The notes under the pieces were generated by a model that was not told the DNA's origin, ran no database searches, and saw only the letters and a program-made list of their open reading frames with translations. A stretch of 58,379 nt of DNA from Bacteroidota bacterium (lineage in GTDB: Bacteria > Bacteroidota > Ignavibacteria > Ignavibacteriales > Melioribacteraceae), in the NCBI GenBank assembly GCA_039714835.1, contig JBDLIN010000001.1, positions 1 to 58,379 of the forward strand, in the 5' to 3' direction. Of the stretch, positions 18,296 through 54,011 are shown in pieces (positions within the stretch are counted from its first letter, which is position 1; the number at the start of each line of letters is the position of its first letter). Made by a program: the position numbers and the translations under genes.

Positions 18296-18374
18296 TTTAT
18301 CTCCATTGGATTATCTCAATTTATCAAATAATAAAATTAAAAGATTTTTAATCTAAAAGGCATTTATATTGACT

Positions 18375-19793: not shown

Positions 19794-19929
19794 ATACTTT
19801 GACCAAAGTATTGATTCTAAATAATTTTTTAATTTGAAAAATTATAAATACTTAAGAATTAGAACTTTTGGAAGATTTTTTCTATAGTAAATAACATACA
19901 CTTTTTATAAAACTATGGTCTCCTACCAA

Positions 19930-21486: not shown

Positions 21487-21555
21487 TGTCTATCCTTATA
21501 AATTTATATTTAACCTTTTATTAAAACTACTTTTCACGTAACACACGAATGAATA

Positions 21556-22743: not shown

Positions 22744-22802
22744 CTACTTTGACCTTATTGTTAAACTGTTTTACTAATTTTTTCAATTAATTAAATTCTT
22801 AT

Positions 22803-23942
22803 TCATGACCCGTATTTTCTAATTCCATCTCTGAAACCAAGAATTGAAAAAGCTGATTTAATAGTATCAAATAATAATTCAATCTGTTCATCTGTAGTTG
22901 TGCTTGTTATGATAAATCTAAAGTGTCCTCCTGGAGGAGCTCCAGGATAATTGATAAATGAAGGATAAATACCGTTTTCCACAAAAATGTTTTTAAGCAT
23001 TTTGTTTTTTTCTACATCATTTAAGGTTATGGAAAATATTGGAGCAGATGTCATCGGCATTTCAAATCCGAGATCTGCAAATTTTTCTTTTAGGACCAAA
23101 GTCTTCTGTTGTAATTCATGAATTAATCTTTGATTGGATTTAATATATGAAATTGACTTTATCGCAGCTGCAGCAAGAGGTAAAGCAAGCCCGGTACTTC
23201 CAACATAAGCATCACTTTTTTTCTGAATTTTTTTAATTAACTCTGCACTACCTGGAATTATTCCACCAAAAGTGCCGAATCCTTTGCTTAGAGTTCCAGT
23301 TTGATAAATCAACTCTCTGTCTATTCCTTTTTCTTCCCAACTACCTTTCCCAGTATTTCCAACCACTGCCATCGCATGTGCATCATCAATTAAGATTTTT
23401 CCATTATAATCACTTAAAATTTCTGCATATTCATCCAAAGGAGGAATATCTCCTCTTGCTGGGAAAACTCCATCCGTCATTATCAATATTTTACTATTTC
23501 CAGAAATATTTTTCCTAAGCTGCTCTTTCAGATGCTGAGAATCAAGAAATTTATATTTAATTATTTTCTTGTCAAAAAGTTTGGAAGCATCCACTATACT
23601 TGAATGAGCCGCTTCATCTATAAGAAAAACGTCAAAATCTTCAGCTATGGTTTGAAGCAAAATCATATTAGATAGGTATCCACTCGTGAAAACAGTAGCG
23701 GTTTCTGAGCTAAAAAACTCAGCTACTTTTTTTTCTAGTTGAATATAGAGTGAATGGTTCCCAGTAGTGGTCCTTGAACCAGTTGGATTAAGTCCATATT
23801 TATAAGCTGCATCTGACATCGTTTCAATAATCATAGGATGATTAGACATTCTATGATAATCGATACCAGCTAGATAAAGAAGTTTTTTACCTTCATATAG
23901 TACGTAATCCCTTTCAACAAATTCTATTTCAGGTCCAAGCAT
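22803..23942 (-). CDS. PLP-dependent alpha-oxoamine synthase family enzyme (KBL/BioF-like)
   Basis: DDAHAMAVVGNTGKG and TLSKGFGTFGG (PLP lysine) motifs. The start overlaps the upstream stop (TAATG). Confidence 0.75.
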   Translation of the reverse strand: MLGPEIEFVERDYVLYEGKKLLYLAGIDYHRMSNHPMIIETMSDAAYKYGLNPTGSRTTTGNHSLYIQLEKKVAEFFSSETATVFTSGYLSNMILLQTIAEDFDVFLIDEAAHSSIVDASKLFDKKIIKYKFLDSQHLKEQLRKNISGNSKILIMTDGVFPARGDIPPLDEYAEILSDYNGKILIDDAHAMAVVGNTGKGSWEEKGIDRELIYQTGTLSKGFGTFGGIIPGSAELIKKIQKKSDAYVGSTGLALPLAAAAIKSISYIKSNQRLIHELQQKTLVLKEKFADLGFEMPMTSAPIFSITLNDVEKNKMLKNIFVENGIYPSFINYPGAPPGGHFRFIITSTTTDEQIELLFDTIKSAFSILGFRDGIRKYGS

Positions 23943-25084
23943 TATTTAATCTCCTGTAGAGTTTTTATATATTCAGAATCAGGACAAGCACCAATACCTG
24001 GTTCATCTGGAATATCAATAATTCCATTATTAATTTTCATCCCACCAACAATTGGATCTTCAGAATGTTCAAGGTATGAATCTAAATCAAAAAATTTGAT
24101 TATTTTATTTGACAAGCTAAAATGTGATGCTGCTGTTAAACCAAGTTTTGATTCTGACATACATCCAACCATAGAAGGAATTACTCCTGCCTCTGCAACA
24201 TGAGCAATTTTCATAGCGTTATGAATTCCGCCTGATTTAGATAATTTGATATTAAAATATGGTGCAACATTTTCTTGAATAAGATTCAATGCATTAAAAG
24301 GAGAGAACAAAGATTCATCTGCCATTATCGGAATATCTGTATTATTACTAACAAATTTCATCCCATTGATATCATTAACTTTACAAGGTTGTTCACAGAA
24401 CTCTATATCAAATTTGCTAAAAGCATCTAAATTATTTTTTGCACTCATGCGATCCCACCCTTGATTTGCATCAATTCTTAATATTGTGTCGTTACCAACA
24501 GCTTCTCGAATGTTTTTCAATCTTAAATAGTCATCATCGAAATCTAATCCGAGTTTTACTTTTATCATCTTAAAACCTTGAGACTTTATTGCTAGTGCCT
24601 TCTCACCAGCTTCATTTGGGTCACAAATTCCAATCGTCATGTCAGTTTCAATTTCACGCTTCTCCCCACCCAATAATGAATACAATGGTAAGCCTGCAAC
24701 CTTACCAATTATATCATATAGTGCCATATCTATAGCACTTTTAATAGTTGTATTATGTGGGAGATAAAAATCCATTAACTGAACAATAGATTCGATTTCT
24801 AATGGGTTTCTACCAATTAGTATTTCTCTTAATTCTTTTGCTGCTGCAAAATTAATTAACTGTGTTTCTCCAACTAAAGCATGAAATGATGCAGCTTCTC
24901 CCCATCCTTCTATTCCCTCATTGGTTTCAATTTTAATTAAAACATTATTCGCATTGTTAAGGCTCATAGTTGCAATTTGAAAAAGCTCTTTTAATGGAAT
25001 ATCAAATTTGTAAATTTTTATATCCGATATTTTTATTTTAGTGTAGTATCTATCATTCAATTTCATTGAGTAAATCCTATACAA
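23942..25084 (-). CDS. enolase-superfamily dipeptide epimerase (L-Ala-D/L-Glu epimerase-like, MR/MLE subgroup)
   Basis: KVKLG, RIDANQGW, CEQP, MADES and a Lys/Asp/Glu/Asp ligand pattern typical of dipeptide epimerases. Confidence 0.75.
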   Translation of the reverse strand: MYRIYSMKLNDRYYTKIKISDIKIYKFDIPLKELFQIATMSLNNANNVLIKIETNEGIEGWGEAASFHALVGETQLINFAAAKELREILIGRNPLEIESIVQLMDFYLPHNTTIKSAIDMALYDIIGKVAGLPLYSLLGGEKREIETDMTIGICDPNEAGEKALAIKSQGFKMIKVKLGLDFDDDYLRLKNIREAVGNDTILRIDANQGWDRMSAKNNLDAFSKFDIEFCEQPCKVNDINGMKFVSNNTDIPIMADESLFSPFNALNLIQENVAPYFNIKLSKSGGIHNAMKIAHVAEAGVIPSMVGCMSESKLGLTAASHFSLSNKIIKFFDLDSYLEHSEDPIVGGMKINNGIIDIPDEPGIGACPDSEYIKTLQEIK

Positions 25085-25130
25085 ATTAATTATTAAATAT
25101 TCTTTTTAGTCGACAACGACTTAATTACCG

Positions 25131-26633
25131 CTACTTAATTAACATAGCCTTAATAAATTCTCTTTTTTTTGATGCTCTGAGTTCAATGAAATAAACTCCT
25201 GTACCAAGTGATGAAGTATCCCACTTTATTTGATGATGACCTGAAGGTTGATACTCATCTTTCAATATTTCTATTTGTTCACCTAATATATTATTCACAC
25301 TAATCATAATATGTTCTGGACTATTTAGATTATATGCAATTTGAGTTGTTGAATTAAATGGATTAGGATAATTTTGATATAGCCTAAATGTTTTTCCCGA
25401 TGCCTCATCATTATTTATTACTGTCAATGAATCAAACAGATCGTGCTCAGGCCATGTTGAGATAGTACTTACTGCTTCCCACATCATATTATCTAATTGC
25501 TCGTTAAAAACATTAAAATTTTCTGGTCTGTAATTTAAAAGAATTGACCAACAAATTTGCCCACTGGAAGTACGAACAAGTAATGCAGTACTACCTGGCA
25601 AACTTCCAAAGTGCCACCAATTACCCAAATTGTTTACCGCCCAACCTTTAGCATAGTTCGGATTAACATCGGAGGGAGTTCGCATAATGTTAATAGTTGA
25701 AGGTGATAGAATATCTGGACGTGATCTAAAACCATCGACAGCTAAAACAAATCGAATTAAATCTGTTGCTGTTCCTACCCAACCACCATGAGAATCCATA
25801 ACTTCAATATCAAATCCACCATAAGGATTTTTTACCAATTCCCCATTTCCATAAATTGATTTAGCAAGTGGTGCTCCATCGTAATCATTATAATACACTT
25901 CGTTTTCTGCAGCATTCTCAAGAAGATTTTTCCCAAGAATCATATCATAAGCTTCAATGGTCTCAAAAATATTTTTTGTGATAAAATCCTCGTAATTCAT
26001 TCCACTTATTTTTTCAATAACTTGTCCTAAAACACTATAGCCAAAATTTGAATAAGCATATTGAGTACCTGGTGAGAAGTCCAAATTATATCTTAGCATA
26101 TACTCTATGATTACTTTCTGATCAGGCGGAGGAGGGACATTCATTTTTGCTGCTATACTTAGACTTTGAAACATAGGATCACCACCAATATTTCTATCCC
26201 AACCTCCAGTATGCTGCAATAAATCCTTAATAGTAATATCTTTTACTCTATCATCTCTTATAGAAGAATAAATAGAATCATTTAATATCCCTTCAGAACC
26301 AAATACTTTATCATCAAGATTAACTTTGTTTTGTTCCATCAATTTCAAAATTGCTACTGATGTAATTGGTTTTGAAACACTTGCAATTCTAAACTGATGA
26401 CTAGGTAAAAGTTCTTCTTCCATATTTTCATCAGCATATCCAAATCCTCTTGCATAAACAAGACGACCTTCTTTACTAATAGCAACGGAAGCCCCAGGTA
26501 CATTCCAATCATCCATAAATTTCTTTATAGTGCTATCTACACCAACCATTTCTGGAACTTTTATGCCTGTCTGTGCATGTAAATGCAGAAACAAGATTAG
26601 AAGAAATAAAAAAATGTTTTTAATGAGATTCAT
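25131..26633 (-). CDS. secreted S12/beta-lactamase-fold serine hydrolase with canonical T9SS C-terminal sorting domain
   Basis: Signal peptide, SVSKPIT (SxxK), YSNFGY (YxN). C-terminal ~85 aa: YQNYPNPFNSTT...GVYFIEL...AMLIK. Confidence 0.75.
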   Translation of the reverse strand: MNLIKNIFLFLLILFLHLHAQTGIKVPEMVGVDSTIKKFMDDWNVPGASVAISKEGRLVYARGFGYADENMEEELLPSHQFRIASVSKPITSVAILKLMEQNKVNLDDKVFGSEGILNDSIYSSIRDDRVKDITIKDLLQHTGGWDRNIGGDPMFQSLSIAAKMNVPPPPDQKVIIEYMLRYNLDFSPGTQYAYSNFGYSVLGQVIEKISGMNYEDFITKNIFETIEAYDMILGKNLLENAAENEVYYNDYDGAPLAKSIYGNGELVKNPYGGFDIEVMDSHGGWVGTATDLIRFVLAVDGFRSRPDILSPSTINIMRTPSDVNPNYAKGWAVNNLGNWWHFGSLPGSTALLVRTSSGQICWSILLNYRPENFNVFNEQLDNMMWEAVSTISTWPEHDLFDSLTVINNDEASGKTFRLYQNYPNPFNSTTQIAYNLNSPEHIMISVNNILGEQIEILKDEYQPSGHHQIKWDTSSLGTGVYFIELRASKKREFIKAMLIK

Positions 26634-26680
26634 TTATTAAATACTTCCACTATCCTATTAAGTTTAGTTAATATCTTAAT

Positions 26681-26718
26681 TTAATAAAAATGACAGTATG
26701 CAAAATACATACTGTCAT
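26681..26718 (-). terminator. rho-independent terminator after 26738..28834
   Basis: Perfect 11-bp stem ATGACAGTATG / CATACTGTCAT (26690..26700, 26708..26718) with a 7-nt loop, followed on the minus strand by TTTTATT. Confidence 0.6.
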
Positions 26719-26737
26719 CTAAGTAATACTGACCGGA

Positions 26738-28834
26738 TTATCGCAATAACATCATTTTCTTTACACTAGAATTTTGTCCAGTAATAATTTTGTAAAAATA
26801 TATTCCAGAAGCTACATCTTTTCCATACTGATTTTTTCCGTTCCATTCAATTGAATGATTTCCAACAGATTTGAGCTCATTTACTAAAGTAGCAACTTTT
26901 TGGCCAAGCATATTATATACAGTTAGATTTACCATATCTGATTTTATAATTGAATAATTAATAATGGTTGAAGGATTAAATGGATTTGGGTAATTCTGTG
27001 ATAGCTCGAACGAATTTACAATATTTCCTTTATTATCATCAACAGAGGTTGGGATTCCTGGTTTTAACCAGAATAGGGATTCAGTACCGGCCCAAGCAGC
27101 AGTTAAAACTTCACTTCCAGTAAACGCTAATCCCCACATATTACCATGCGGCTGATTAGTTTCCATTACTTGATGAAGAGAATCAGATCCGTCATAGTCA
27201 TAAATCCTAATTAAATTTGAACCTCTATCATTAACCCATAATTGACCATTCACCCATTCCATTCCACCAGAATATGCAATTGGAGTATCTACAAAAGCTG
27301 ATTCCATAGCAACACCGTCTAAATCAAAACGGAATAATTCATAATTCGGTACTCCGTCCAGGTTACCACGGCCAATCCAAACTATATCATTATAAATCGC
27401 TAGTCCTCGTTGACGATTTGTTGCACCACTTGCCCCAACTATATCCGTTGGCCAAAAGTTTACTACTGTACCATTTGTATCTAATTCCCATACCTCACCA
27501 GAACCAGCAGAATGCTGATTAGCGTATATAGTATTATATTTACTCCAAGCAGCACCTTGAGTATTTGATGGTGCGCCTTCTGGATTTGCAAAAGTTTTAA
27601 GTACAGCACCATTCTCTTTATCCAATTTATACCAAGTATTATCTTGTTCATTGACTGACCAAACATAATTACTATCCCAAACCATAGCAACCCATCCCGC
27701 TTGTCCAAGAGGGACTTCATTGATAACATCACCTTGTATAGGTCCACCAGCACGCATTCCTATTATTTTACTACTCACTCCTTCTCTATTTGCATCAGAT
27801 ACTGCAACTAAATAAAAACTATAGTATTCAACCGGTGTCAGATTGCTAACAGTAAATTGTTCACCGGTACTTGAACCTAGTAATACTCCTGTATTTGCAT
27901 CATAAATATTTACACTTTGAGTTGTCCCAGCATTGCCATTAAGATAGAGAGTAGGATTCGTCCAACTCAAGTCAATTGATGTAGGGGTGTTTTCATCACT
28001 AACAGTTGATATGTCAGTTGGTGCTTGTAAATATTCACCATGTCCTTTACCAACATACATTTTGTAAATTATATTTTGGTCCCAACAAACATTAAGGACA
28101 TCATTCCCATCAAACGTAAGGTCATGAGATAATTGTCCCCAAGCACCTGGAATTTGTGAATTTATTTTCTGTAAAAATGTCCCATCCATTGTATAACTTG
28201 TAAAATATAATCTGTCATCATTCATCCATATTTCATCCTCAGCTATACAAAGTTGGTTTAACCAACCTACTTCAGCAACTGAAAAAGAAGAGAGTTGTTC
28301 TCCAGTGGGACTTATTTCATATATCATCCCTGTACCACCATCATTTGTTCCGATCCAAAAATTGGTCCCATCCCAATCTACACCGCGTAAAATCCCACCA
28401 ACTCCCGGATCAACAAAACCAACTGAATCACCTGTTGCTGGGTCCATAGCATATAATCCCGGGTATTCACTACTCCAAGGACATGCCAACCAAAGGTTTG
28501 TACCATCGAAAGTCATTGACCACCCATAATCTGCATGACTTAAAGAAAATGGAACTGGGATAGTATCTAGCGGAGTAAAATCAGTTCCATCCAATTTGTA
28601 AACTGTATGCTCAGCCTCATGATAAATATATGCTACATTACTGACTTTATCGAAAGCCATACCAACGTTCCCATAAGTATATGGATATTTTCCTACTATC
28701 TCTCCATCTGCGAATAAAGAAGAGTTAGCTACTAATAGAATAGAAACCATTAGTAAAGTTAGATTAATAAAATTCTTTTTCATGTTACAACTCCTTTTAA
28801 TTGTTGATAAATTCTGAATGATTTGTTTTTTCAT
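26738..28834 (-). CDS. secreted protein: two beta-propeller-like halves separated by an FN3-like domain, with canonical T9SS C-terminal domain
   Basis: Signal peptide (likely start at Met18, nt 28783). Repeated W/G-rich blade-like segments, FN3-like DLSWTNP...YYSFYLVAV. Tail SQNYPNPFNPST...GIYFYKI...KMMLLR. Confidence 0.6.
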   Translation of the reverse strand: MKKQIIQNLSTIKRSCNMKKNFINLTLLMVSILLVANSSLFADGEIVGKYPYTYGNVGMAFDKVSNVAYIYHEAEHTVYKLDGTDFTPLDTIPVPFSLSHADYGWSMTFDGTNLWLACPWSSEYPGLYAMDPATGDSVGFVDPGVGGILRGVDWDGTNFWIGTNDGGTGMIYEISPTGEQLSSFSVAEVGWLNQLCIAEDEIWMNDDRLYFTSYTMDGTFLQKINSQIPGAWGQLSHDLTFDGNDVLNVCWDQNIIYKMYVGKGHGEYLQAPTDISTVSDENTPTSIDLSWTNPTLYLNGNAGTTQSVNIYDANTGVLLGSSTGEQFTVSNLTPVEYYSFYLVAVSDANREGVSSKIIGMRAGGPIQGDVINEVPLGQAGWVAMVWDSNYVWSVNEQDNTWYKLDKENGAVLKTFANPEGAPSNTQGAAWSKYNTIYANQHSAGSGEVWELDTNGTVVNFWPTDIVGASGATNRQRGLAIYNDIVWIGRGNLDGVPNYELFRFDLDGVAMESAFVDTPIAYSGGMEWVNGQLWVNDRGSNLIRIYDYDGSDSLHQVMETNQPHGNMWGLAFTGSEVLTAAWAGTESLFWLKPGIPTSVDDNKGNIVNSFELSQNYPNPFNPSTIINYSIIKSDMVNLTVYNMLGQKVATLVNELKSVGNHSIEWNGKNQYGKDVASGIYFYKIITGQNSSVKKMMLLR

Positions 28835-28933: not shown

Positions 28934-29962
28934 TTATTGTGATATCATAATTCCGAATCTATGTACTCCATCAAATACCCCGAAATCAGAGTAGGAGTAA
29001 TCAAATGCAAATAGTCCTAAACCACCTATAATTATTTTTACTCCTGCACCAGCTGAAAATGAGCTCTCAGAATAGCCTATCCGGTATCCTGAACGAATAC
29101 TGAATTGTTCATCAAACACATATTCAATTCCGATATTAGATTTAAGATTATAATCCACAGCACTAGATAAATCAACTGATGAGAGTAAAGTTGATTTGTC
29201 CGATTTAATAATATCACCTTTGGCCCCAATGATTTCTGCTGATAGTCCCATACGAAATGTAGTAGGCATTGCCCATTCTTCTGTAATAAGTTCAGCAGGA
29301 GCATTAAATAATCCTTGATGATCTGGTTCCGATTGGAATTGCATGTCAATACCAGACATCTTCATTGGTGGGCCAACATTTGAAAGATTCATACCAATAT
29401 TTAATCCATAAATATCTGTATGTAGCAGCAACCCGAAGTCAGCAGCAAAAGATGACGCACTGTTTCTGGAAATACTCTCTCTTAAATATTTGAGGTTTAA
29501 TCCAACTAATAATCGATCAGTCATTTTCTTCGCTACTGATACTCCTAATGACATATTAGAAACTTCGTAAAACTGACCTGTCCCGTCCCATTGCGATTCA
29601 GTTGTAATCTCAATGTCACCGGATGTGAGATATATAGCGTTCAATCCAATAGTTAAATCAGAACCTAAAGGAATCGATAATCCACCAAAATTATGAACAA
29701 TACCAGCATAAAGTTGAAGGTGTTCAATTTGTGCAGATATACTATTGTAATTAGCCAATCCTGCCGGATTCCAATACATTGAAGTCAGATCATTTGAAAT
29801 ACTAACAAAAGCACCACCAAGAGCGGATGCTCGTGCACCAACTTCTATTTTCATAAAATTCGCTGCACTTGTTCCAACTTTTGTTTCACCAGCCTTAATT
29901 TGAGGATTGATCAAAAAAGCTAATATCAAAGTACATATCAAATATTTATGTTTCATATTCAT
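28934..29962 (-). CDS. PorV/PorQ-family (FadL-like) outer-membrane beta-barrel protein, copy 1
   Basis: Signal peptide. N-terminal GTSAANFMKIEVGARASALGGAF...MYWNPAGLA signature. Alternating beta-strand pattern with an aromatic C-terminus. Paralog of 49296..50330. Confidence 0.7.
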   Translation of the reverse strand: MNMKHKYLICTLILAFLINPQIKAGETKVGTSAANFMKIEVGARASALGGAFVSISNDLTSMYWNPAGLANYNSISAQIEHLQLYAGIVHNFGGLSIPLGSDLTIGLNAIYLTSGDIEITTESQWDGTGQFYEVSNMSLGVSVAKKMTDRLLVGLNLKYLRESISRNSASSFAADFGLLLHTDIYGLNIGMNLSNVGPPMKMSGIDMQFQSEPDHQGLFNAPAELITEEWAMPTTFRMGLSAEIIGAKGDIIKSDKSTLLSSVDLSSAVDYNLKSNIGIEYVFDEQFSIRSGYRIGYSESSFSAGAGVKIIIGGLGLFAFDYSYSDFGVFDGVHRFGIMISQ

Positions 29963-30028
29963 AACTCTCTTTACTATGAAAAGTTTTCATAATGCATTTA
30001 TTTAAGTCAATTTAATTTGTTGTATTCC

Positions 30029-33000
30029 TTACCGTATAAGTGAAAATTTACCAACATAATCTCCCCACTCACTTTCTACTCTATATATATATAATCCATA
30101 AGCAACTTCCATGTTTTCTTTTGTCCTTAGATCCCAAGATGTATGTCCTACCGTAGAATTATCATGATAAATGTCAATTATATGCTCTGCAGAAAGTGTA
30201 AAAATTGATATTTTACATTTAGGAGGAAGATTTGTAAATAATATTTTCTTTGAAATTTCATCTCTTTCCCAAGATGCTCGAACATAGTATGGATTAGGAA
30301 CAACTTTTACCTTACTTACATCAATCTGCGATTCCTTTATTTGTGTAGGTTCTGTATTTATTATATATTCATCCTCAACGGTTAAATAATGATGAGATTT
30401 AATAATTATTTTATCAACATTTGGTATCGCCCAATTTTCATTCCCAAGTGAATCACTAGCTCCCTTTATTTTCAGAATAGCGGACCAATCTAAAGGCCAA
30501 TCACCAGGTGTGTTAGGAACATTTGTATCTGGCCACATACCTGTTTCACCTGTTCCTGCAGAATCTTCAATAGAAAATGGAATCTCCATGATGTACATTT
30601 CATCCTCAGATTGAAATGTATTGTTTTTGGGTCTCTTATCATCCATCATCCAATGTAGTTGAAAAATATTTGATGGATCAGAAATATTCCATACCTCAAT
30701 CGGCGACCAGTAATTATAAGGTCGGGCTCCGAATCTTCCTGCCCAAGTCATATTTTCATTATATGCAAAAGACAATTGAATAGAATCTAAAAATCGTATT
30801 TCATAATCATTACCTTTATAATAGCTCACTGGACTTTCATCCGTAACTGAAACAACAATTCTACCGTTTCCATCTGAATTAGTTGCGCTATTTAAATCAG
30901 TTCCATCTTGATCTTCAATACTAATTATACCTTGAGGAGTATCTTGCAAGAAAAATTGGATTCCATCTATAATCGGAAAAACTTCCTCCGATGTTCTGTC
31001 AGAATTAGGCATCAGTACTTCATCAACAATTATATTACCGGATGTAACATTTGTTATTGTAACCCTAGTTGAATCCTGACTTGAGGGATCATTTGTAGAA
31101 AAAGTAAATTTATATTGATTCCCTTTTACTAGAAACGGGTCTATAATAGTCATATTTACTATTGCATCAGAATGACCGGATGTATGCTCTATTGAACTTT
31201 CGACTGGAATAATCCCGTTAGGTGGTGTCCCTACAATTACATCTACAGTATTGATGGAAGATGGAGAACTACCCATTGCTGATTCTAATGGGACTATTTT
31301 CCCAACACCAGCATCATATGAGGTTATTGTGTATCTATATCGTAAACCTGGAATTACTGTGGAATCTACCCAACTATGCTTTAATCCTGTATCATCTCCT
31401 AAATAAAAAGTAGGATCTATTTCGCTTCTTCCTTTTACGCCATTGTTCTTATCAAGTTGTTCAATAGGAAGCCATTTAACAAATGTTCCAGTCTCGTCTG
31501 TAACGAAAGCTTCATCGTTTCCTGCTGTTCCCCAAGTTTGACCAAGATTAACACTTCTATAAATTTTGTATCCTTCAAAATCAGCATCTCCTGTAATGGG
31601 ATCGCGTGCATCTTCAGGCAAATCATCCCAATAAAGTGTAACCTTAGAGTCATTTGAATATACTATTGGAACATCAAATGAACGCAATGGGTCTCCTTCT
31701 TCTGTTAATTTAGTTCCGGTTGCATGTAATGTTGGAGAAGGAGGAGCTTGTGGCCCAATAAAATTATTATCAACCATTCCTTGAGCTAACTCTAACTTTT
31801 CAATTATTTCTTCATCAGTATATCCTACAATTACAACCATTGCCCACTCTAAAGTATCTCCAGGTTCAAGCCGTAATGGACCAATTCCCAATTCCGATGT
31901 TAAATTAACCTCATCCGTTATTAACTCGGGTTCATCAAATCCATCATTATCAATATCATGATCCCAATCTTCTTTTTCACGAGCTCCTTGCAAGATAGTT
32001 TCATCACCACTAATAGTATAGAACATCCTTCTATCATTAATTTCGTAATCTCTCCATGTCAAATAATAATCAAACCAATGCCATTGGGTAATATCCCAAG
32101 CTTTTCCTGTTCTATCAATAGGTTTTTTGACAAGAGCCCACCCTAGACGTGGAACTTCTCCTGTATATACTTCATGTGTATGAAAATCATCTTCATCATA
32201 GGTAATCAATAGATTTTTTTCACGAATAAACTTTGCGCGATCATAAAATAAACCATCATCACCTGTTCCAATCCATTGCATCCCCCCACCCTCATGTATA
32301 TAATACATAGGAGCGCCTGTCTCTAAAAAAAGTCCCGTATATAAACTATCTACTGCACTTAGCTCAATTTCACCATCATAGTCTGGATCTCCGGTGAATG
32401 AGAGTTTAAAATTCCAAAACATAAAATCTTTTGCATATGATCTTGCAAATGAATACGCTTGTATTTCGTATTCTAATCCAATTGGCGCACCAGATTCCTC
32501 AGGTCCACCAGGATTTAAACCATGATATTTGTCATTAATTCTAAAGAATACTTCTTCATCAGCAGCAAACTGTCCTGGTATTTCTTTGCCTGTTTCTGGA
32601 TCAATTGCCCAATGACCTGGCCAATGTCTTTCTCCAGGCGTACTCACCCAATTTCCATTTTCATCGGTATATCCTTTCGGCCAAGTTTTGGGATTTGTAC
32701 TAGTAGCTAAGATTGCTTTCCCATTATTTGCAAAAACTTCTCCACTAAATTCTTGACCACGAGCTCCGTCTGCAGCTTCCCAATCAGTGAACTGATAATT
32801 CCATGTTGGTACATCAGTCATAAATGCATAGTTATAAGTCTTGCCTTTGCCTGCAATTGATAATGAATCTATAGCCGGTTTTCCTTCCAAGTCCTTTGGT
32901 CCGCCAGGAGGATATGCACAATTTATTGTACTAAATTCTGATAGGGTTAATCTTAAAGGCATATATGTATAGATGGGTGGCTGACGCCATCCTCCAATAC

Positions 33001-33247
33001 TACCATAATTTTCGATCCCGCCAACATGAATATTACCTACACTCAAAAATGCTGTGCCTCTATCTCCAAAAGCATTTGGTTTATATAAAGGTTTAAGATA
33101 ATTTTGAGGGATACCGCTTCCTCCAGATCCTGTATCAACAACACTGTATGTTGTCTCTGAATTGGATTGTCCCAACATTGTACTAAAGATGCTGAAAATC
33201 AATATTATTAAAAGTTTGTTTTTATAAATCACTTTTATTCCTCGCAT
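30029..33247 (-). CDS. 1072-aa secreted protein of unknown function with FN3-like domain and divergent T9SS-like C-terminal domain, copy 1
   Basis: Start chosen at the ATG 1 nt after the receptor stop (MRGIKV...); the ORF track extends to 33271. Signal peptide, VTLYWDDLPEDARDP...FEGYKIYRS. Tail VVPNPYYV...LYIYRVE...KFSLIR. Paralog of 50379..54005. Confidence 0.75.
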   Translation of the reverse strand: MRGIKVIYKNKLLIILIFSIFSTMLGQSNSETTYSVVDTGSGGSGIPQNYLKPLYKPNAFGDRGTAFLSVGNIHVGGIENYGSIGGWRQPPIYTYMPLRLTLSEFSTINCAYPPGGPKDLEGKPAIDSLSIAGKGKTYNYAFMTDVPTWNYQFTDWEAADGARGQEFSGEVFANNGKAILATSTNPKTWPKGYTDENGNWVSTPGERHWPGHWAIDPETGKEIPGQFAADEEVFFRINDKYHGLNPGGPEESGAPIGLEYEIQAYSFARSYAKDFMFWNFKLSFTGDPDYDGEIELSAVDSLYTGLFLETGAPMYYIHEGGGMQWIGTGDDGLFYDRAKFIREKNLLITYDEDDFHTHEVYTGEVPRLGWALVKKPIDRTGKAWDITQWHWFDYYLTWRDYEINDRRMFYTISGDETILQGAREKEDWDHDIDNDGFDEPELITDEVNLTSELGIGPLRLEPGDTLEWAMVVIVGYTDEEIIEKLELAQGMVDNNFIGPQAPPSPTLHATGTKLTEEGDPLRSFDVPIVYSNDSKVTLYWDDLPEDARDPITGDADFEGYKIYRSVNLGQTWGTAGNDEAFVTDETGTFVKWLPIEQLDKNNGVKGRSEIDPTFYLGDDTGLKHSWVDSTVIPGLRYRYTITSYDAGVGKIVPLESAMGSSPSSINTVDVIVGTPPNGIIPVESSIEHTSGHSDAIVNMTIIDPFLVKGNQYKFTFSTNDPSSQDSTRVTITNVTSGNIIVDEVLMPNSDRTSEEVFPIIDGIQFFLQDTPQGIISIEDQDGTDLNSATNSDGNGRIVVSVTDESPVSYYKGNDYEIRFLDSIQLSFAYNENMTWAGRFGARPYNYWSPIEVWNISDPSNIFQLHWMMDDKRPKNNTFQSEDEMYIMEIPFSIEDSAGTGETGMWPDTNVPNTPGDWPLDWSAILKIKGASDSLGNENWAIPNVDKIIIKSHHYLTVEDEYIINTEPTQIKESQIDVSKVKVVPNPYYVRASWERDEISKKILFTNLPPKCKISIFTLSAEHIIDIYHDNSTVGHTSWDLRTKENMEVAYGLYIYRVESEWGDYVGKFSLIR

Positions 33248-33248
33248 A

Positions 33249-35969
33249 TTATCTTTGAGTAAAATTAGCACTAATCCCTAATCGAATTTGACGGCTTGGG
33301 CTGTAATAAATTGGACGATCTCTATATGTTGTAGTACCTCCCCAGAGATTTCCAGGATCTTTTGCTGATCCTGTTTCTGGATAGAAGAACACAACATTTC
33401 GTATGTCAAGTAAATTGGTTACTTCGAGGTAAGGCGAAATACTGAATGATGAAAAAGTTATAGTCTTTACAATTCTTAGATCAATATTATTCATCCATGG
33501 CCGTTGGAATGCATTAACTTCACCAATTTGTTCCCCGTATATAGTTGTAGATGTATAAGGATACCCACTATTACCACTATACAACAACGATAAGCGTAAA
33601 TCTCTTAATATTGAGCTTTGCATATCCCTCGGGAATCTGACGAATAAATTAAAGCGGATTATATGTGGCTGATTCCAACTGAGTATTCTCTCTTTCGCAG
33701 GTAGAGTTGCTGGAGAAGTAAAACTTCTAAATCCTTGAAATTGATCTTCTCTTATTCCAGTTGCTAATCCATATGAATAATTAAATTCGAAACTAATGTA
33801 ATTCGAATATCTTTTTTTAAGTGAAAAGTCAATTCCTTGAGCACTGGAATAATCTAAATTATCAAACACTGAGTAGTGTGTATTCGTGTGAGTGGTGTCA
33901 GAAAATTGCGGAACAAAAACTGTTCCTACCATATTTACTGTTTTCTTCAACCATAAGTTTACTTCAAAAAACATGTCTTCACTTAACATTTGTTTCAATC
34001 CAATTTCATAGGCAGTAGTTTCTTCAGGTTCCAATAAAGGATTTCCAAGCATTGGCCATATTTGTTTCATTACTTGCTCTCGGTTTGGTTGGAAAAACCG
34101 ATTTGCATATGAAGCATTTTGATAAAATATACCATAGTTAAAGTGAAACACCGTTGCTACTGAAATCGGAATTGATACACCTAATCTGGGGGCGAGATTC
34201 AAATGTGGTTTAACTTTTTCCTCACCAGATTTCCATTGAGTAGGATCTTTCCAAAAAGAACCTTCTGATTTTTCATAATCAAGTCTCAATCCCGCATTTA
34301 CAATCAAGTAGTCATATTCCATTTTATCTTGAATATAAAATGCAGCTTGCTTTGGTGTTTTTTGATAAATATTAAGATTATGCGAACCACCCACATGAAC
34401 CTGACTCTGTTCATTTACATCAAAATCAAATAATTTTAACTCAGCACCTGCTTTGAGAAGATGTTTCTGTGAAACTTGAGAAGTGATGTCAAATTTCATG
34501 TTATATACTGTCTGATATTCATCAGTCCAGTATTCATCATCCCCGACAGAAAATTCAGAATAGAACGGATCTCTTGGTTCAGGTGATTTATAATAATAAT
34601 CAATTAAGGTACTATCTACATCTTCAGAATTTATCGGTGCAGGTATTAACTCAACTCTTTCTCCGTCAATTGTTCTGTAAACACGCTGTTTACGATATTT
34701 ACTTAACATAGAAACACCAAAAGTGTAATAAGTATTTGTACTAAGCACATGATTTAATAATGCGGAAAGATTAAGTACTTTATGAACATTCTCATTTCGG
34801 CTATCCATATTATATTGATACCAGAAATTATAGAGCTTATAATCCCATATCATTCCAGCACCTGTAAGATTCAATTTAATCTGAGATGAAAATGGTATTG
34901 ACAACTTGGCCATAAAATCTTTCTGATTATTATAACCAAAATTTTGCCAGCTACTTTTAGTGTCATAAGGATGTACATTTCTAGGTTTCCCATAACCTGA
35001 ATAGGTTTTATTCGAACTGTTAGAATTGTATACTATATTATCAAATTCGTAAACCTGATCTGCTGACTCCTTTATGCGGAATGTTGAAAAAAATGTTACT
35101 CCTCCAAAAATTGGTCCGCTAATTGCTCCCATTAAGCTATGGAGATTCCACAATTGATCAGACTTTGTACCTAACTTTGTTGTTTTATAATCAGCATTAA
35201 TATTCCACTTATCAGTTCCCTCCTTCGTTACAATATTTACCATTCCTGACATTGCATTACCGTATTCTGCGTTGAATGAACCAGCTAGAATCTGCATTTC
35301 TTGTACAGATTCTTTATTCATTCTCAATCCAAGTTCTCCATATAATGGATTTGAAATAGACATCCCATCAAGAGTATATTGTGTTTCTGAAACTCTACCT
35401 CCCCTAATATGAACTTGTGGAACTCCTAAATCAGACATTCCGGGAATTCCAATATTAGTACCTTCAACGGTTGTAGGAATATTGACAACGTTTGATTCCA
35501 TAGTCAACACTTGTGATATATCATCAATAGGAGCTTCTGCAATCAGTTCAGCATTAATAATTGAAGCCTTACCTGTTTTATCCTTTTGAATTAATGGTCG
35601 TTCTCCTTTTATAACTACTAATTCCCCTTCTATAACTGTTGTTTCTAATTCGACATTTACTTCAGTTGTCATATCAGATTCGACTTGGATACCTTCAATT
35701 TTTATTTTTTTATATCCCATCATCGAAATAATTAGATTATAACGTCTTGGAGAAACATTTAAGATAAGATATCTTCCATCAACATCTGTAGCAGCTCCAA
35801 TATTAGTACCCTCAAGCATAATATTAGCACCAACTAATGATTCTTTTGTTTCTTTATCAACTATAACTCCAGTAATTTTTCCTGTTGTTCCAGCGAATAA
35901 AGTACTTTCGAATATTAATATCATAAATAATAAAAAGTAACGATACATTAGAAAGTCATAAACCTTCAT
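33249..35969 (-). CDS. TonB-dependent outer-membrane receptor with N-terminal CarboxypepD_reg-like domain, copy 1
   Basis: Signal peptide, GKITGVIVDKETKESLVGANI...TDVDGRY (carboxypeptidase-regulatory-like fold), plug region, long barrel ending in an aromatic-rich C-terminus (RLGISANF). Confidence 0.85.
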   Translation of the reverse strand: MKVYDFLMYRYFLLFMILIFESTLFAGTTGKITGVIVDKETKESLVGANIMLEGTNIGAATDVDGRYLILNVSPRRYNLIISMMGYKKIKIEGIQVESDMTTEVNVELETTVIEGELVVIKGERPLIQKDKTGKASIINAELIAEAPIDDISQVLTMESNVVNIPTTVEGTNIGIPGMSDLGVPQVHIRGGRVSETQYTLDGMSISNPLYGELGLRMNKESVQEMQILAGSFNAEYGNAMSGMVNIVTKEGTDKWNINADYKTTKLGTKSDQLWNLHSLMGAISGPIFGGVTFFSTFRIKESADQVYEFDNIVYNSNSSNKTYSGYGKPRNVHPYDTKSSWQNFGYNNQKDFMAKLSIPFSSQIKLNLTGAGMIWDYKLYNFWYQYNMDSRNENVHKVLNLSALLNHVLSTNTYYTFGVSMLSKYRKQRVYRTIDGERVELIPAPINSEDVDSTLIDYYYKSPEPRDPFYSEFSVGDDEYWTDEYQTVYNMKFDITSQVSQKHLLKAGAELKLFDFDVNEQSQVHVGGSHNLNIYQKTPKQAAFYIQDKMEYDYLIVNAGLRLDYEKSEGSFWKDPTQWKSGEEKVKPHLNLAPRLGVSIPISVATVFHFNYGIFYQNASYANRFFQPNREQVMKQIWPMLGNPLLEPEETTAYEIGLKQMLSEDMFFEVNLWLKKTVNMVGTVFVPQFSDTTHTNTHYSVFDNLDYSSAQGIDFSLKKRYSNYISFEFNYSYGLATGIREDQFQGFRSFTSPATLPAKERILSWNQPHIIRFNLFVRFPRDMQSSILRDLRLSLLYSGNSGYPYTSTTIYGEQIGEVNAFQRPWMNNIDLRIVKTITFSSFSISPYLEVTNLLDIRNVVFFYPETGSAKDPGNLWGGTTTYRDRPIYYSPSRQIRLGISANFTQR

Positions 35970-35989: not shown

Positions 35990-36859
35990 TTATTCATCAT
36001 AGTATATTCTTGCTTCTTCCCACTGCTGCTTAACTATTTTTAATTGCTCTATTGCTTCCTCACCTTTCATTTCAGCACAACAAGCAAGTATGGCCATCGA
36101 AATACTCATTGCCCCAATAAATGGGCTGAAATAAGAGTTGCTTGATGAAGCAGTCAATAGCGAGATATCACTATATTTATATAAAGGTGATAATTCACTA
36201 TCTGTTATTGAAATTGTTTTTATTCCTTCTTCCTGTGCAGATTTAACAGCATTAACGGTCTGTCTTATACATTTTCCAAAACTAATTCCAATTACGACAT
36301 CATCTTTTTCAAAATGCCGCATATAGTCAAAAAGATATCCACTTCCATAAATCACTTCTTGAACATTTGGAATGTATGTTCTTAATTCAGCAGCTAGAAA
36401 TACAGCAATAGAACGTGCTGCTTCCAATCCAACTATATAAGTTCTTTTTGATTTTATAATTATATTAACAACATCTACAATTTCAGACCATGAGATTTTA
36501 GCAACTGTTCTATTTAAAACATCTAAATCAGTTAAAAGAGAAGCTTTAATAGTATCTTCAAGAGGTGATTTTTTTTTAAGAGAACCCTCTGCTTCAAGTT
36601 TATCTAACATACTCTCATATCCGGTAGCCTTTTTTTGCCGATATACCACTCTTTGATGCTTTTTTAAGTCATTGAATCCATCATATCCTAATTCTTTACA
36701 AGCTTTAATAATTGTAGCAGGATTAATTTTTAAGATTTCGGAAAGTTCACGTATAGTTAGAAGAGCAATGTCATCGGGATGATCTGTTATATATTTTATA
36801 ACTTCTCTTTGTCTTTTAGGTATAGAATCAAGATTCTCCATAATAATATCCTTAAACAC
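35990..36859 (-). CDS. MurR/RpiR-family transcriptional regulator (HTH + SIS domain)
   Basis: N-terminal HTH_6-type region (QREVIKYITDHPDDIALLTIRELSEILKINPATIIKACKELGYDGF). C-terminal SIS phosphosugar-binding domain. Confidence 0.85.
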   Translation of the reverse strand: MFKDIIMENLDSIPKRQREVIKYITDHPDDIALLTIRELSEILKINPATIIKACKELGYDGFNDLKKHQRVVYRQKKATGYESMLDKLEAEGSLKKKSPLEDTIKASLLTDLDVLNRTVAKISWSEIVDVVNIIIKSKRTYIVGLEAARSIAVFLAAELRTYIPNVQEVIYGSGYLFDYMRHFEKDDVVIGISFGKCIRQTVNAVKSAQEEGIKTISITDSELSPLYKYSDISLLTASSSNSYFSPFIGAMSISMAILACCAEMKGEEAIEQLKIVKQQWEEARIYYDE

Positions 36860-42004: not shown

Positions 42005-42235
42005 ATGCCACAAGTATCATTATATATTGATAATGAAACATTTAAGAAAATTGGCAAAGCTGCCAAAATTGAAAAAAAATCCATTTCCAAATGGGTTTCA
42101 TCAAAGATTATAACTTCACTAAGTAACTCATGGCCAACAGAATGGTTTAATCTTTTTGGATCATTAAACGATGAGACATTTACAGAACCGGATGAACTCC
42201 GTTTCAGTGAAGATAACAAGAGAGAAAAACTATGA
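42005..42235 (+). CDS. vapB: type II antitoxin (VapB-like, probable ribbon-helix-helix)
   Basis: 76 aa. N-terminal beta-strand/helix pattern VSLYIDNETFKKIGKAAK, acidic C-terminal tail. 4-nt overlap (ATGA) with the PIN toxin gene. Confidence 0.7.
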   Translation: MPQVSLYIDNETFKKIGKAAKIEKKSISKWVSSKIITSLSNSWPTEWFNLFGSLNDETFTEPDELRFSEDNKREKL

Positions 42236-49240: not shown

Positions 49241-49268
49241 AAAAAAAAGGGACGATACTCGTCCCTTT
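49241..49268 (-). terminator. rho-independent terminator after the PorV-like gene 49296..50330
   Basis: AAAGGGAC-gatactc-GTCCCTTT stem-loop. The minus-strand RNA ends in a run of 8 U (A8 at 49241..49248 on the plus strand). Confidence 0.75.
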
Positions 49269-49295
49269 CAATATTAAAACTATTAGATTTATTTT

Positions 49296-50330: not shown

Positions 50331-50378
50331 TTATTTTCCTCCGCTATAAATTTTTTAGATACCGTTTAATTGATATCT

Positions 50379-54005: not shown

Positions 54006-54011
54006 TTTATC

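What the first reader, a model, noticed from the sequence alone, without database searches (positions are those of the whole stretch)
28934..35969. Three-gene outer-membrane module: TonB-dependent receptor, >1000-aa secreted protein with T9SS-like tail, PorV-like barrel (copy 1)
Seen in sequence:
- The receptor stop TAA is followed by 1 nt and then the ATG of the 1072-aa protein. The PorV-like gene follows after 66 nt.
- The same order recurs with clear paralogs at 49296..56837.
- Receptor N-termini: FAGTTGKITGVIVDKETKESL vs FAGSTGKIAGLVKDKETGEPL.
- Both giant proteins start MRGI and share VTLYWDD...GYKIYRS.
- Both barrels share KVGT..A.F.KI..GARA.A.GGA...YWNPAG.
- Neither receptor has a SusD/RagB-like partner.

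Inference: this is a fixed unit of receptor, surface-displayed partner and dedicated PorV-type shuttle or anchor. That would make it a SusC/SusD-analogous uptake machine built from T9SS parts. I cannot place the giant protein in any characterised family.
Basis: partly seen in the sequence, partly recalled or inferred. Interest (0 to 1): 0.78.

Follow-up and report, generated by a model that had tools for sequence, protein, structure and literature searches.

The report
Receptor, giant surface protein, PorV-like barrel
Two copies of a three-gene outer-membrane unit (TonB-dependent transporter, uncharacterised ~1100-residue surface protein with a type IX secretion tail, and its own PorV-like barrel) belong to a very large unnamed family conserved in this gene order across the FCB bacteria, usually inside nutrient-utilisation loci, so it looks like a SusD-free counterpart of the SusC/SusD uptake machine.

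Summary
All six genes lie on the minus strand at the stated coordinates, and the two triads are true paralogs (29%, 24% and 36% identity).

- **Gene 1** is a real TonB-dependent transporter with a SusC-type N-terminal domain, but it is not a SusC/RagA family member.
- **Gene 3** is a full-length PorV/PorQ-family barrel, but it is neither PorV nor PorQ proper.
- **Gene 2** (the giant protein) matches no Pfam or NCBIfam family. AlphaFold2 models giant 2 (pLDDT 82) as all-β, with an N-terminal supersandwich-like domain, an Fn3 domain and further β-sandwiches. The tail is homologous to type A T9SS C-terminal domains by profile comparison (96%), although it falls below the family cut-offs.

The giant family is huge (2484 clusters at E≤1e-30). 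In 80 loci from many FCB phyla, 60 of 64 giants have the transporter directly upstream and 66 of 71 have the barrel directly downstream. The three proteins co-diversify (Mantel r 0.75–0.88).

Neighbouring genes are substrate-specific regulators, enzymes and inner-membrane transporters. Two Rhodothermus marinus papers draw a similar gene order but leave the genes as hypothetical.

Best reading (0.55): a TonB-powered uptake core whose surface partner is delivered by T9SS and held by a dedicated PorV paralog. No physical complex has been shown.

The parts
33249..35969 (-). TBDR1: TonB-dependent transporter, 906 aa. It has a signal peptide, a carboxypeptidase-regulatory-like N-terminal domain (aa 32-120), a TonB-box-like stretch ELVVIKG, a plug (aa 129-242) and a barrel.
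   Evidence: Pfam PF13715 2e-19 and PF07715 6.5e-7. It is 29% identical to TBDR2 over the full length. The family profile hits PhuR, CirA, FepA and SusC homologs in the PDB.
30029..33247 (-). Giant 1: 1072-aa secreted all-β protein with a Sec signal peptide and no lipobox. It has an N-terminal supersandwich-like region, an Fn3 domain, β-sandwiches and a T9SS type-A-like C-terminal domain.
   Evidence: No Pfam or NCBIfam hit. Orthologs at 64-77% identity. AF2 model pLDDT 62. Foldseek hits Fn3 strings, PorZ, PorU and the GH94 supersandwich.
31298..31666 (-). Fn3-like domain of giant 1 (about aa 528-650; VTLYWDD...GYKIYRS...YRYTITSYD). This is one of the two best-conserved regions of the family.
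   Evidence: Alignment invariants. Per-region conservation 0.59 against 0.33-0.44 elsewhere.
30032..30325 (-). C-terminal domain of giant 1 (about aa 975-1072; VVPNPY...NLPPKCKISIFT...WDL...YGLYIYRV...GKFSLIR). It is a divergent T9SS type A CTD.
   Evidence: hhalign of giant tails against canonical neighbour CTDs gives 96.2%, E 2.5e-9. β-sandwich in the AF2 models.
28934..29962 (-). PorV-like 1: 342-aa PorV/PorQ-family outer-membrane barrel.
   Evidence: NF033709 at 178 bits (cut-off 90) over positions 1-324 of 326. It matches F. johnsoniae PorV (6h3i_F) at 2e-5 alone and at 1.7e-26 as a family profile.
35990..36859 (-). RpiR/MurR-type regulator (HTH_6 + SIS) ending 20 nt upstream of TBDR1. 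It is the likely regulator of locus 1.
   Evidence: Pfam. NCBIfam MurR/RpiR. The same position is kept in the relative L081.
17060..28834 (-). Downstream genes of locus 1: an Fn3 protein with a canonical T9SS CTD, a β-lactamase-fold hydrolase with a CTD, an MR_MLE epimerase (best match L-Ala-D/L-Glu epimerase), a BioF/Kbl-like acyltransferase, DUF819, a second β-lactamase-fold hydrolase, serine dehydratase and a PepC-like peptidase.
   Evidence: The order is conserved in L081. No intergenic terminator was found after PorV-like 1.
54012..56837 (-). TBDR2: TonB-dependent transporter, 941 aa.
   Evidence: Pfam PF13715, PF07715, PF00593 (2e-23) and PF25183.
50379..54005 (-). Giant 2: 1208 aa from the TTG start, or 1202 aa from the ATG. 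It is the widely conserved paralog.
   Evidence: More than 1290 relatives, all named hypothetical, none carrying a precomputed Pfam domain. AF2 pLDDT 81.9, pTM 0.69. The top Foldseek hit is PorZ, and no catalytic fold appears.
49296..50330 (-). PorV-like 2: 344-aa PorV/PorQ-family barrel.
   Evidence: NF033709 at 214.5 bits; it is below the PorV, PorQ and PorV2 equivalog cut-offs.
49245..49269 (-). Intrinsic terminator-like hairpin (11-bp stem followed by a T-run) 27 nt after the PorV-like 2 stop. It closes module 2 as a three-gene operon.

Best explanation
Each triad is the outer-membrane core of a nutrient-acquisition locus.

**Transporter.** The first gene is a TonB-energised transporter that imports the substrate.

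[quoted passage not shown] It is a compact, calcium-loop-rich, all-β surface protein. Its variable N-terminal and middle domains capture the substrate (oligosaccharide or peptide, depending on the locus).

**Barrel.** The dedicated PorV-paralog receives the giant's C-terminal domain at the translocon. It then keeps the giant tethered non-covalently at the surface, next to or docked on the transporter. The giant thereby plays the part that the SusD lipoprotein or surface glycan-binding proteins play in Bacteroidia.

**Substrates.** Module 1 serves a peptide locus, possibly for D-amino-acid or murein peptides. Module 2 is a stand-alone three-gene operon of unknown substrate.

**Shown versus inferred.**
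- Shown: the identities of the parts, the conserved gene order, the co-diversification and the nutrient-locus contexts.
- Inferred: T9SS dependence, retention of the C-terminal domain on the barrel, physical contact with the transporter, and ligand binding by the giant.
For: **Parts.**
- TonB-dependent transporter hallmarks are present.
- The barrel is a full-length PorV/PorQ-family member and a homolog of solved PorV.
- The giant's tail is homologous to type A CTDs. Canonical CTD cargo encoded in the same locus shows that the organism uses T9SS.

**Giant structure.**
- It is all-β, with a supersandwich-like N-terminal domain and no catalytic fold.
- There is no invariant His, Ser, Cys or Lys among the conserved columns.
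- It has no lipobox, so it cannot be lipid-anchored the way SusD is.

**Fixed unit.**
- 60 of 64 giants have the transporter directly upstream and 66 of 71 have the barrel directly downstream, across many FCB phyla.
- The median stop-to-stop ORF gap is 4 nt, and paralog types are concordant in 53 of 61 triads.
- Mantel r is 0.88, 0.75 and 0.84 against a permutation maximum below 0.19.

**Context in relatives.**
- LacI regulator, sugar ABC transporter and GH94.
- OPT transporter with M20 and C10 peptidases.
- Fucosidases, GH130 and MFS.
- Amidase_2 and SpoIID.
- The module 1 locus is conserved in a 75%-identical relative.
- The R. marinus alginate locus holds a TonB receptor, a T9SS type A protein and a PorV/PorQ-family protein in this order (PMC9530828).

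**Precedents.**
- PorZ-PorQ, PorU-PorV and type B CTD-PorP/SprF are cognate pairs in which the C-terminal domain is kept and the barrel anchors the protein (PMC10202324).
- BamG, a FadL/PorV-like barrel, binds a surface protein through its loops and packs against BamA (PMC12578637).
Against: - There is no direct evidence of a complex. No multimer model, proteomics or co-purification was available.
- The giant's tail is only moderately more conserved than ordinary cleaved CTDs (mean pairwise identity 0.45 against 0.365). Conservation therefore does not prove that the tail is retained.
- Co-diversification is expected from tight linkage alone.
- Module 2 and its orthologs stand alone, with no degradative genes nearby. 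Their substrate is unknown, and a non-nutritional role is possible.
- A few loci are rearranged or lack the barrel (L008, L015, L084).
- No ligand-binding site has been identified.
- The giant 1 model is poor (pLDDT 62).
Confidence: 0.55

Rival explanations
1. The genes are co-regulated but the proteins do not form a complex. The giant is an ordinary T9SS cargo (a surface binding protein, adhesin or unrecognised enzyme) whose C-terminal domain is cleaved. It is then released or linked to A-LPS. The PorV paralog acts only as a cargo-specific shuttle from the translocon, and the transporter works alone.
For: - The tail is homologous to cleavable type A CTDs.
- Its conservation is only modestly above that of neighbouring canonical CTDs.
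- Other canonical CTD cargo lies in the same loci.
- Several loci are rearranged without loss of the giant.
Against: - Canonical cargo encoded in the same loci has no private PorV paralog. Only the giants do, in 66 of 71 cases.
- The order transporter-giant-barrel is almost invariant, with coupled or overlapping reading frames.
- The tail forms a distinct subfamily with an insertion after PNPY and an NLPxxC motif, and it falls below the type A cut-offs.
Confidence: 0.25
2. The unit is an export or surface-assembly device. The TonB-dependent barrel, like Myxococcus Oar, helps move the giant or another protein outward. Together with the PorV-like barrel it builds a surface coat or adhesin layer rather than importing nutrients.
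For: - The transporters combine a CarboxypepD_reg domain with a plug, and hit PF25183 or PF14905 barrels rather than SusC. From my own knowledge, this is the architecture of Oar, which is needed for PopC secretion.
- The most conserved paralog (module 2) stands alone without catabolic genes.
Against: - Many triads are embedded in clearly catabolic loci, with regulators and inner-membrane importers.
- The giant carries a T9SS-type signal of its own, so it needs no second exporter.
- No similarity to Oar was tested directly.
Confidence: 0.07
3. The giant and barrel are paralogs of the T9SS attachment complex (PorU/PorZ with PorV/PorQ). They would process or attach a subset of cargo rather than serve nutrient uptake.
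For: - The top Foldseek hit is PorZ, and PorU is also hit.
- NCBIfam gives weak hits to the PorZ and PorU C-termini.
- porU and porV are adjacent in Bacteroidetes (own knowledge).
Against: - The hits are confined to the C-terminal domain and generic β-sandwiches, with TM-scores of 0.08-0.13.
- Ordinary CTD cargo gives the same weak PorU and PorZ hits.
- There is no C25 peptidase domain and no conserved Cys/His dyad.
- Several divergent triads occur per genome, inside substrate-specific loci.
Confidence: 0.05

Closest known systems
SusC/SusD (RagA/RagB) pairs and utilisomes of Bacteroidia
   Same: - A TonB-dependent transporter with a carboxypeptidase-regulatory-like N-terminal extension is encoded immediately upstream of a surface-exposed partner.
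- Both sit inside substrate-specific loci with regulators and degradative enzymes.
- Several paralogous copies occur per genome.
   Different: - The partner is an all-β protein of about 1100 aa, not the roughly 550-aa α-helical TPR-like SusD.
- It has no lipobox and carries a T9SS-type C-terminal domain instead.
- A third gene, a PorV-family barrel, is part of the unit.
- The transporter fails the SusC/RagA family cut-off (70 bits against 368).
PorZ-PorQ and PorU-PorV pairs of the T9SS attachment complex
   Same: A protein with a type-A-like C-terminal domain is paired with a PorV/PorQ-family barrel. In the known pairs the domain is not cleaved and the barrel anchors the protein (PMC10202324).
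   Different: - The giants have no C25 peptidase domain and no PorZ β-propellers.
- The barrels are below the PorV and PorQ equivalog cut-offs.
- The pair is multi-copy and always sits next to a TonB-dependent transporter.
Type B CTD cargo with a cognate PorP/SprF barrel (for example SprB-SprF)
   Same: The cargo gene is clustered with a dedicated PorV-like barrel that is needed for its secretion and anchoring. Many cognate pairs occur per genome.
   Different: - The tail here is related to type A, not type B. Among 40 relatives, PF13585 is hit only marginally by one (E 0.0086).
- The barrel is of the PorV/PorQ family rather than PorP/SprF.
- A transporter is part of the unit.
Rhodothermus marinus alginate and xylan loci (PMC9530828 Fig. 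2; PMC6987092 Table 1)
   Same: - Alginate locus: TonB-dependent receptor (2805 nt), then a T9SS type A sorting protein (2181 nt), then a PorV/PorQ-family protein (1056 nt), inside an experimentally studied locus.
- Xylan locus: Rmar_1070 (receptor), then Rmar_1071 (hypothetical protein with a Por C-terminal domain), then Rmar_1072.
   Different: - The middle protein there is shorter (about 726 aa).
- Its homology to the giants was not tested here.
- The papers list these genes as hypothetical and propose no role.
BamG-BamH in the Bacteroidota BAM complex, and BtuB-BtuG
   Same: - BamG is a FadL/PorV-like 14-stranded barrel. It holds a surface protein by its loops and packs against a larger barrel (PMC12578637).
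- BtuB-BtuG is a TonB-dependent transporter with a non-SusD surface cap.
   Different: In those systems the surface partners are lipoproteins. Neither uses a T9SS C-terminal domain, and BamG serves protein assembly, not uptake.

Membership tests
TonB-dependent transporter | N-terminal plug domain | tested here: met
   PF07715 scores 30.3 bits (TBDR1) and 40.9 bits (TBDR2) against a cut-off of 23.9.
TonB-dependent transporter | C-terminal 22-stranded barrel | tested here: met
   PF00593 gives 2e-23 in TBDR2. TBDR1 aligns with TBDR2 end to end. The family profile matches PhuR, FepA and CirA through the barrel. Strand number was not modelled.
TonB-dependent transporter | TonB box before the plug | tested here: inconclusive
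   A conserved stretch E-x-VVV-x-A/G-x-RP lies between the N-terminal domain and the plug (ELVVIKGERP and EAVVVQGVRDP; consensus). It resembles Bacteroidetes TonB boxes by eye only.
SusC/RagA family | TIGR04056 family score | tested here: not met
   Scores are 69.6 and 57.6 bits against a cut-off of 368. The match covers mainly the N-terminal part.
SusC/RagA family | Adjacent SusD/RagB gene | tested here: not met
   The neighbours are the giant, an RpiR regulator and a phosphohexomutase. No SusD Pfam family was found in any scanned neighbour.
SusD/RagB family (for the giant) | α-helical TPR-like fold and lipoprotein signal | tested here: not met
   The AF2 model is almost entirely β. The signal peptides have no lipobox cysteine. 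There are no SusD Pfam hits.
PorV/PorQ family | NF033709 family score over the full length | tested here: met
   Scores are 177.9 and 214.5 bits against a cut-off of 90, covering model positions 1-324 of 326. The profile matches solved PorV 6h3i_F at 1.7e-26.
PorV proper / PorQ proper / PorV2 | Equivalog cut-offs NF033710 (250), NF033711 (220), NF052325 (325) | tested here: not met
   PorV scores 64 and 84 bits, PorQ 79 and 89, PorV2 71 and 85.
PorV/PorQ family | 14-stranded FadL-type barrel fold | not tested
The fold is inferred from sequence family membership.
T9SS type A C-terminal domain | TIGR04183 / PF18962 score | tested here: not met
   Giant 2 scores 17 bits against 23, and giant 1 has no hit. 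Only 1 of 40 relatives is marginal in Pfam (E 0.0014).
T9SS type A C-terminal domain | Homology and β-sandwich fold of the last ~100 residues | tested here: met
   hhalign against canonical CTDs from neighbouring genes gives 96.2%, E 2.5e-9. The AF2 tail is a β-sandwich. PorZ and PorU appear among the Foldseek hits.
T9SS cargo | Secretion depends on T9SS; fate of the C-terminal domain | not testable with these tools
   This needs T9SS mutants and proteomics.
PorU (C25 sortase) / PorZ | Full-length family match; Cys/His dyad or β-propellers | tested here: not met
   The NF033707 and NF052228 hits cover only the last ~50-90 residues, at 18-23 bits against 420 and 260. No conserved Cys/His pair is found outside the tail.

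The most novel reading that the evidence does not exclude
This triad is an ancient core of outer-membrane nutrient capture, spanning the FCB superphylum and independent of SusD. In this reading a T9SS-delivered, non-lipidated giant β-sandwich protein is held over a TonB-dependent transporter by a private PorV paralog that docks on the transporter barrel. T9SS and TonB-dependent import would then be mechanically coupled in one machine. Lineages that lack SusD (Ignavibacteria, Calditrichota, Marinimicrobia, KSB1, many Rhodothermales) would rely on this form of polymer and peptide uptake.
Probability: 0.45. Interest if true: 0.85.

Novelty: new variant of a known kind. Interest (0 to 1): 0.72.

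Why it matters
**An unnamed, very large family.**
- The giant family has thousands of members: 2484 clusters at 50% identity with E≤1e-30.
- It has no Pfam or NCBIfam model and no assigned function.
- It sits in a nearly invariant operon with a TonB-dependent transporter across phyla that dominate sediments, hot springs, the deep ocean and bioreactors.

**A blind spot in current surveys.** Polysaccharide-utilisation loci are found by looking for SusC/SusD pairs. Such surveys are blind to these loci, so the polymer- and peptide-degrading capacity of SusD-poor FCB lineages is probably under-counted.

**Mechanistic consequences if the proposed complex is real.**
- It would show a second way to place a substrate-capture protein on a TonB-dependent transporter, using T9SS plus a PorV-family anchor in place of lipoprotein surface export.
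- It would extend the role of PorV-family barrels beyond secretion.

**It is testable.** Cultured carriers exist. These are Rhodothermaceae bacterium RA, confirmed here, and probably Rhodothermus marinus, which to my knowledge is genetically tractable.

Tried and rejected
**Sequence family searches for the giants.** These gave nothing beyond marginal tail hits.
- Pfam and NCBIfam, including all 40 members of an alignment.
- A PDB sequence-profile search.

**Fold searches.**
- Whole-chain Foldseek of both models returned only generic Fn3/Ig strings, the PorZ and PorU tails, and GH94 or polysaccharide-lyase supersandwich domains, all at TM 0.05-0.14.
- Domain-wise fold search was not possible.

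**Conservation as a test of tail retention.** I hoped that unusually high conservation of the giant's tail would argue for retention. The control with canonical CTDs from neighbouring genes weakened that argument (0.365 against 0.45 identity).

**Literature.** Ten full-text searches found no paper that treats the triad as a unit. Two R. marinus papers draw the genes as hypothetical.

**Readings considered and set aside.**
- PorU/PorZ paralogs: only tail-level similarity.
- An enzyme role for the giant: no catalytic fold and no conserved nucleophile.
- SusC membership for the transporter: the cut-off is not met.

**Not checked.** The 516-aa protein that replaces the barrel in L084 has no family hit.

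Full report
**1. Observation**

The region holds three co-directional minus-strand genes:
- TBDR1, 33249-35969, 906 aa.
- Giant 1, 30029-33247, 1072 aa from the ATG.
- PorV-like 1, 28934-29962, 342 aa.

A second set lies at 54012-56837, 50379-54005 and 49296-50330. The quoted peptides are all present.

The pairs are real paralogs:
- Transporters: 29% identity, E 4e-95.
- Giants: 24% identity, E 1e-32.
- Barrels: 36% identity, E 2e-62.

A strong hairpin with a T-run at 49269-49245 follows the second barrel, so module 2 is a self-contained three-gene operon. No comparable terminator follows the first barrel.

There is no SusD-like neighbour. Upstream of TBDR1 is an RpiR/SIS regulator, and upstream of TBDR2 is a divergent phosphohexomutase.

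**2. The parts**

*Transporters*
- Both carry a carboxypeptidase-regulatory-like N-terminal domain and a plug. TBDR2 also hits the TonB-dependent barrel model.
- A profile of 18 family members matches PhuR, CirA, FepA and, over the N-terminal domain plus plug, SusC homologs in the PDB.
- They fail the SusC/RagA family model (70 and 58 bits against 368).

*Barrels*
- They are full-length PorV/PorQ-family proteins (178 and 214 bits against a cut-off of 90).
- They fall well below the equivalog cut-offs for PorV, PorQ and PorV2.
- A family profile matches solved F. johnsoniae PorV at 1.7e-26.

*Giants*
- They match nothing in Pfam or NCBIfam. Scanning 40 relatives individually gives only single marginal hits.
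- Both have Sec signal peptides without a lipobox cysteine.

**3. Structure of the giant**

AlphaFold2 on a 40-sequence alignment gave a confident model of giant 2 (pLDDT 81.9, pTM 0.69). Its layout, in mature numbering, is:
- An almost entirely β N-terminal domain of about 550 residues, interrupted by an Asp-rich, variably present insert (DNDDDGITDE, GDEDGDWD).
- One long helix.
- An Fn3 domain (VTLYWDD…GYKIYRS…YYYA..AYD).
- Several further β-sandwiches.
- A terminal β-sandwich.

The giant 1 model is poor in its first 450 residues (pLDDT 62).

Foldseek against the PDB gave the following:
- PorZ is the top hit for giant 2 and sixth for giant 1. PorU is hit too.
- There are many Fn3/Ig strings.
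- The β-supersandwich domains of GH94 phosphorylases and a polysaccharide lyase are hit at probability 1.0.
- All hits have TM-scores of 0.05-0.14.
- No catalytic fold appears.

The invariant columns of the family contain no His, Ser, Cys or Lys outside the tail.

**4. The tail**

The family tail reads VVPNPY…(insert)…F.NLP..CTIRIYT..GELV…W.L…A.GVYIY.V…GKFA.IK.
- It is below the type A cut-offs.
- A profile of giant tails aligns to a profile of canonical CTDs taken from neighbouring genes at 96.2%, E 2.5e-9.
- It is therefore a divergent type A CTD subfamily.
- The Fn3 domain and the tail are the best-conserved parts of the family (majority frequency 0.59 and 0.57, against 0.33-0.44 elsewhere).
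- Canonical CTDs from the same loci are themselves 36.5% identical on average, against 45% for giant tails. I therefore do not treat conservation as proof that the tail is retained.

**5. Distribution and synteny**

*Size of the family*
- Giant 2 has more than 1290 word-sharing relatives, all named hypothetical. Giant 1 has 19.
- An exhaustive profile search of 1.84 billion representatives found 2484 clusters at E≤1e-30 and 6494 at E≤1e-10.

*Taxonomic spread.* A scan of one genome per species found at least 589 relatives. They come from Calditrichota, Marinimicrobia, KSB1, WOR-3, Cloacimonetes, Stahlbacteria, Rhodothermales, Cytophagia, Chitinophagales, Gemmatimonadota and Ignavibacteria.

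*Gene order in the best 80 loci*
- 60 of 64 evaluable giants have a transporter of this type directly upstream.
- 66 of 71 have a PorV-like gene directly downstream.
- The median stop-to-stop ORF gap is 4 nt.
- The exceptions are rearrangements that still keep a TonB-dependent receptor next door (L008, L015), or an unknown 516-aa gene in place of the barrel (L084).
- Tandem triads occur in L027, L053 and L078.

*Co-diversification*
- The paralog type (module-1-like or module-2-like) agrees for all three genes in 53 of 61 triads.
- The distance matrices correlate at r 0.88 (transporter-giant), 0.75 (giant-barrel) and 0.84 (transporter-barrel), with permutation maxima below 0.19.
- This shows co-inheritance as a unit. 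It does not by itself show physical contact.

**6. Context**

*Module 1.* It lies between an RpiR/MurR regulator and a run of downstream genes:
- an Fn3 protein with a canonical CTD;
- a β-lactamase-fold hydrolase with a CTD (best matches PBP4B, AmpH, D-aminopeptidase);
- an MR_MLE enzyme whose best match is L-Ala-D/L-Glu epimerase (below cut-off);
- an acyltransferase and DUF819;
- a second β-lactamase-fold hydrolase;
- serine dehydratase and a PepC-like peptidase.

The whole arrangement is kept in a relative whose giant is 75% identical. This has the flavour of scavenging peptides, perhaps peptides containing D-amino acids or derived from murein.

*Other triads*

| Locus | Neighbouring genes |
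|---|---|
| L032 and relatives | LacI regulator, sugar ABC transporter, GH94 |
| L082 | OPT transporter, M20 and C10 peptidases |
| L084 | fucosidases, GH130, MFS |
| L085 (isolate Rhodothermaceae bacterium RA) | Amidase_2, SpoIID |

*Module 2.* Its ortholog stands alone, with the same HhH-GPD neighbour.

**7. Literature**

Ten full-text searches found no paper that describes this triad as a unit.
- One paper on Rhodothermus marinus alginate lyases draws, inside the alginate locus, a TonB-dependent receptor (2805 nt), a T9SS type A sorting protein (2181 nt) and a PorV/PorQ-family protein (1056 nt) in this order. It labels the last two hypothetical (PMC9530828).
- The R. marinus xylan locus lists Rmar_1070 (receptor), Rmar_1071 (hypothetical protein with a Por C-terminal domain) and Rmar_1072 (PMC6987092).
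- I could not test whether those middle proteins are homologs of the giants.

Precedents for the proposed anchoring:
- PorZ keeps its CTD to bind PorQ, and PorU stays bound to PorV.
- Type B cargo needs clustered cognate PorP/SprF barrels. A review suggests that cognate PorV-like barrels protect CTDs from cleavage (PMC10202324).
- BamG, a FadL/PorV-like barrel, binds a surface protein by its loops and packs against BamA (PMC12578637).

**8. Interpretation**

The best-supported reading is an outer-membrane uptake core in three steps:
1. The transporter imports the substrate.
2. The giant, delivered by T9SS, captures the substrate at the surface.
3. The private PorV paralog receives and holds the giant's tail beside the transporter.

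Status of the evidence:
- Shown: the part identities, the fixed order, the co-diversification and the catabolic contexts.
- Inferred: T9SS dependence, tail retention, contact with the transporter and ligand binding.

I put this reading at 0.55. The rivals are:
- Co-regulated but separate proteins, with an ordinary cleaved cargo (0.25).
- An Oar-like export or surface-coat role (0.07).
- Attachment-complex paralogs (0.05).

**9. Novelty and score**

The functional logic, a TonB-dependent transporter with a surface partner inside a utilisation locus, is known. So is cargo paired with a cognate PorV-like barrel.

Three things appear to be undescribed:
- their combination into one conserved unit;
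- the giant protein family itself;
- the breadth of the unit across FCB lineages that lack SusD.

I rate it a new variant of a known kind, with interest 0.72. I cannot exclude that work outside the searched library has already described it.

Noticed in passing
window 110-16859 (- strand): A hydrogenase block. It holds HypE-, HypD-, HypF- and HypB-like maturation genes, the NiFe hydrogenase large and small subunits, a 1136-aa fused FAD/FeS protein (Pyr_redox_2 + Fer4_20 + Fer4), and CCG- and Fer4-domain proteins that resemble an Mvh/Hdr-type module.
   Followed up: partly
window 17060-26633 (- strand); L081 13268-23204: The genes downstream of module 1 look like a locus for peptide or D-amino-acid peptide use. 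They include two β-lactamase-fold hydrolases (AmpH/PBP4B/D-aminopeptidase-like, one with a T9SS CTD), an enolase-superfamily enzyme closest to L-Ala-D/L-Glu epimerase (237 bits, below the 500 cut-off), DUF819, serine dehydratase and a PepC-like peptidase. The order is conserved in a relative.
   Followed up: partly
L085 (Rhodothermaceae bacterium RA, CP020382.1 1958202-1979621): A cultured isolate carries a module-2-like triad. It is followed by an Amidase_2 (muramoyl-alanine amidase family) gene and a SpoIID gene, and preceded by a LytTR two-component system. This hints at a link with cell-wall material.
   Followed up: no
L027, L053, L078: Two triads lie head to tail in one locus, showing local duplication of the whole unit.
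   Followed up: no
L084 5370-6920: In a fucosidase/GH130 locus the gene after the giant is a 516-aa protein with no Pfam or NCBIfam hit, in place of the PorV-like barrel.
   Followed up: partly
window 42232-42630 (+): A PIN-domain (VapC-like) gene sits alone on the plus strand, next to the 2-oxoacid dehydrogenase genes. No antitoxin partner was looked for.
   Followed up: no
window 37234-38202 (-): A sigma-54 activator (AAA+ domain plus Fis-type HTH) of only 322 aa has no receiver or sensor domain. It lies just upstream of the RpiR regulator of locus 1.
   Followed up: no
window 53988-54005: The MRGI start of giant 2 depends on a TTG codon. The public gene call starts at the ATG six codons downstream (1202 aa). 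Giant 1 also has an alternative GTG start 8 codons upstream that overlaps the end of TBDR1.
   Followed up: partly
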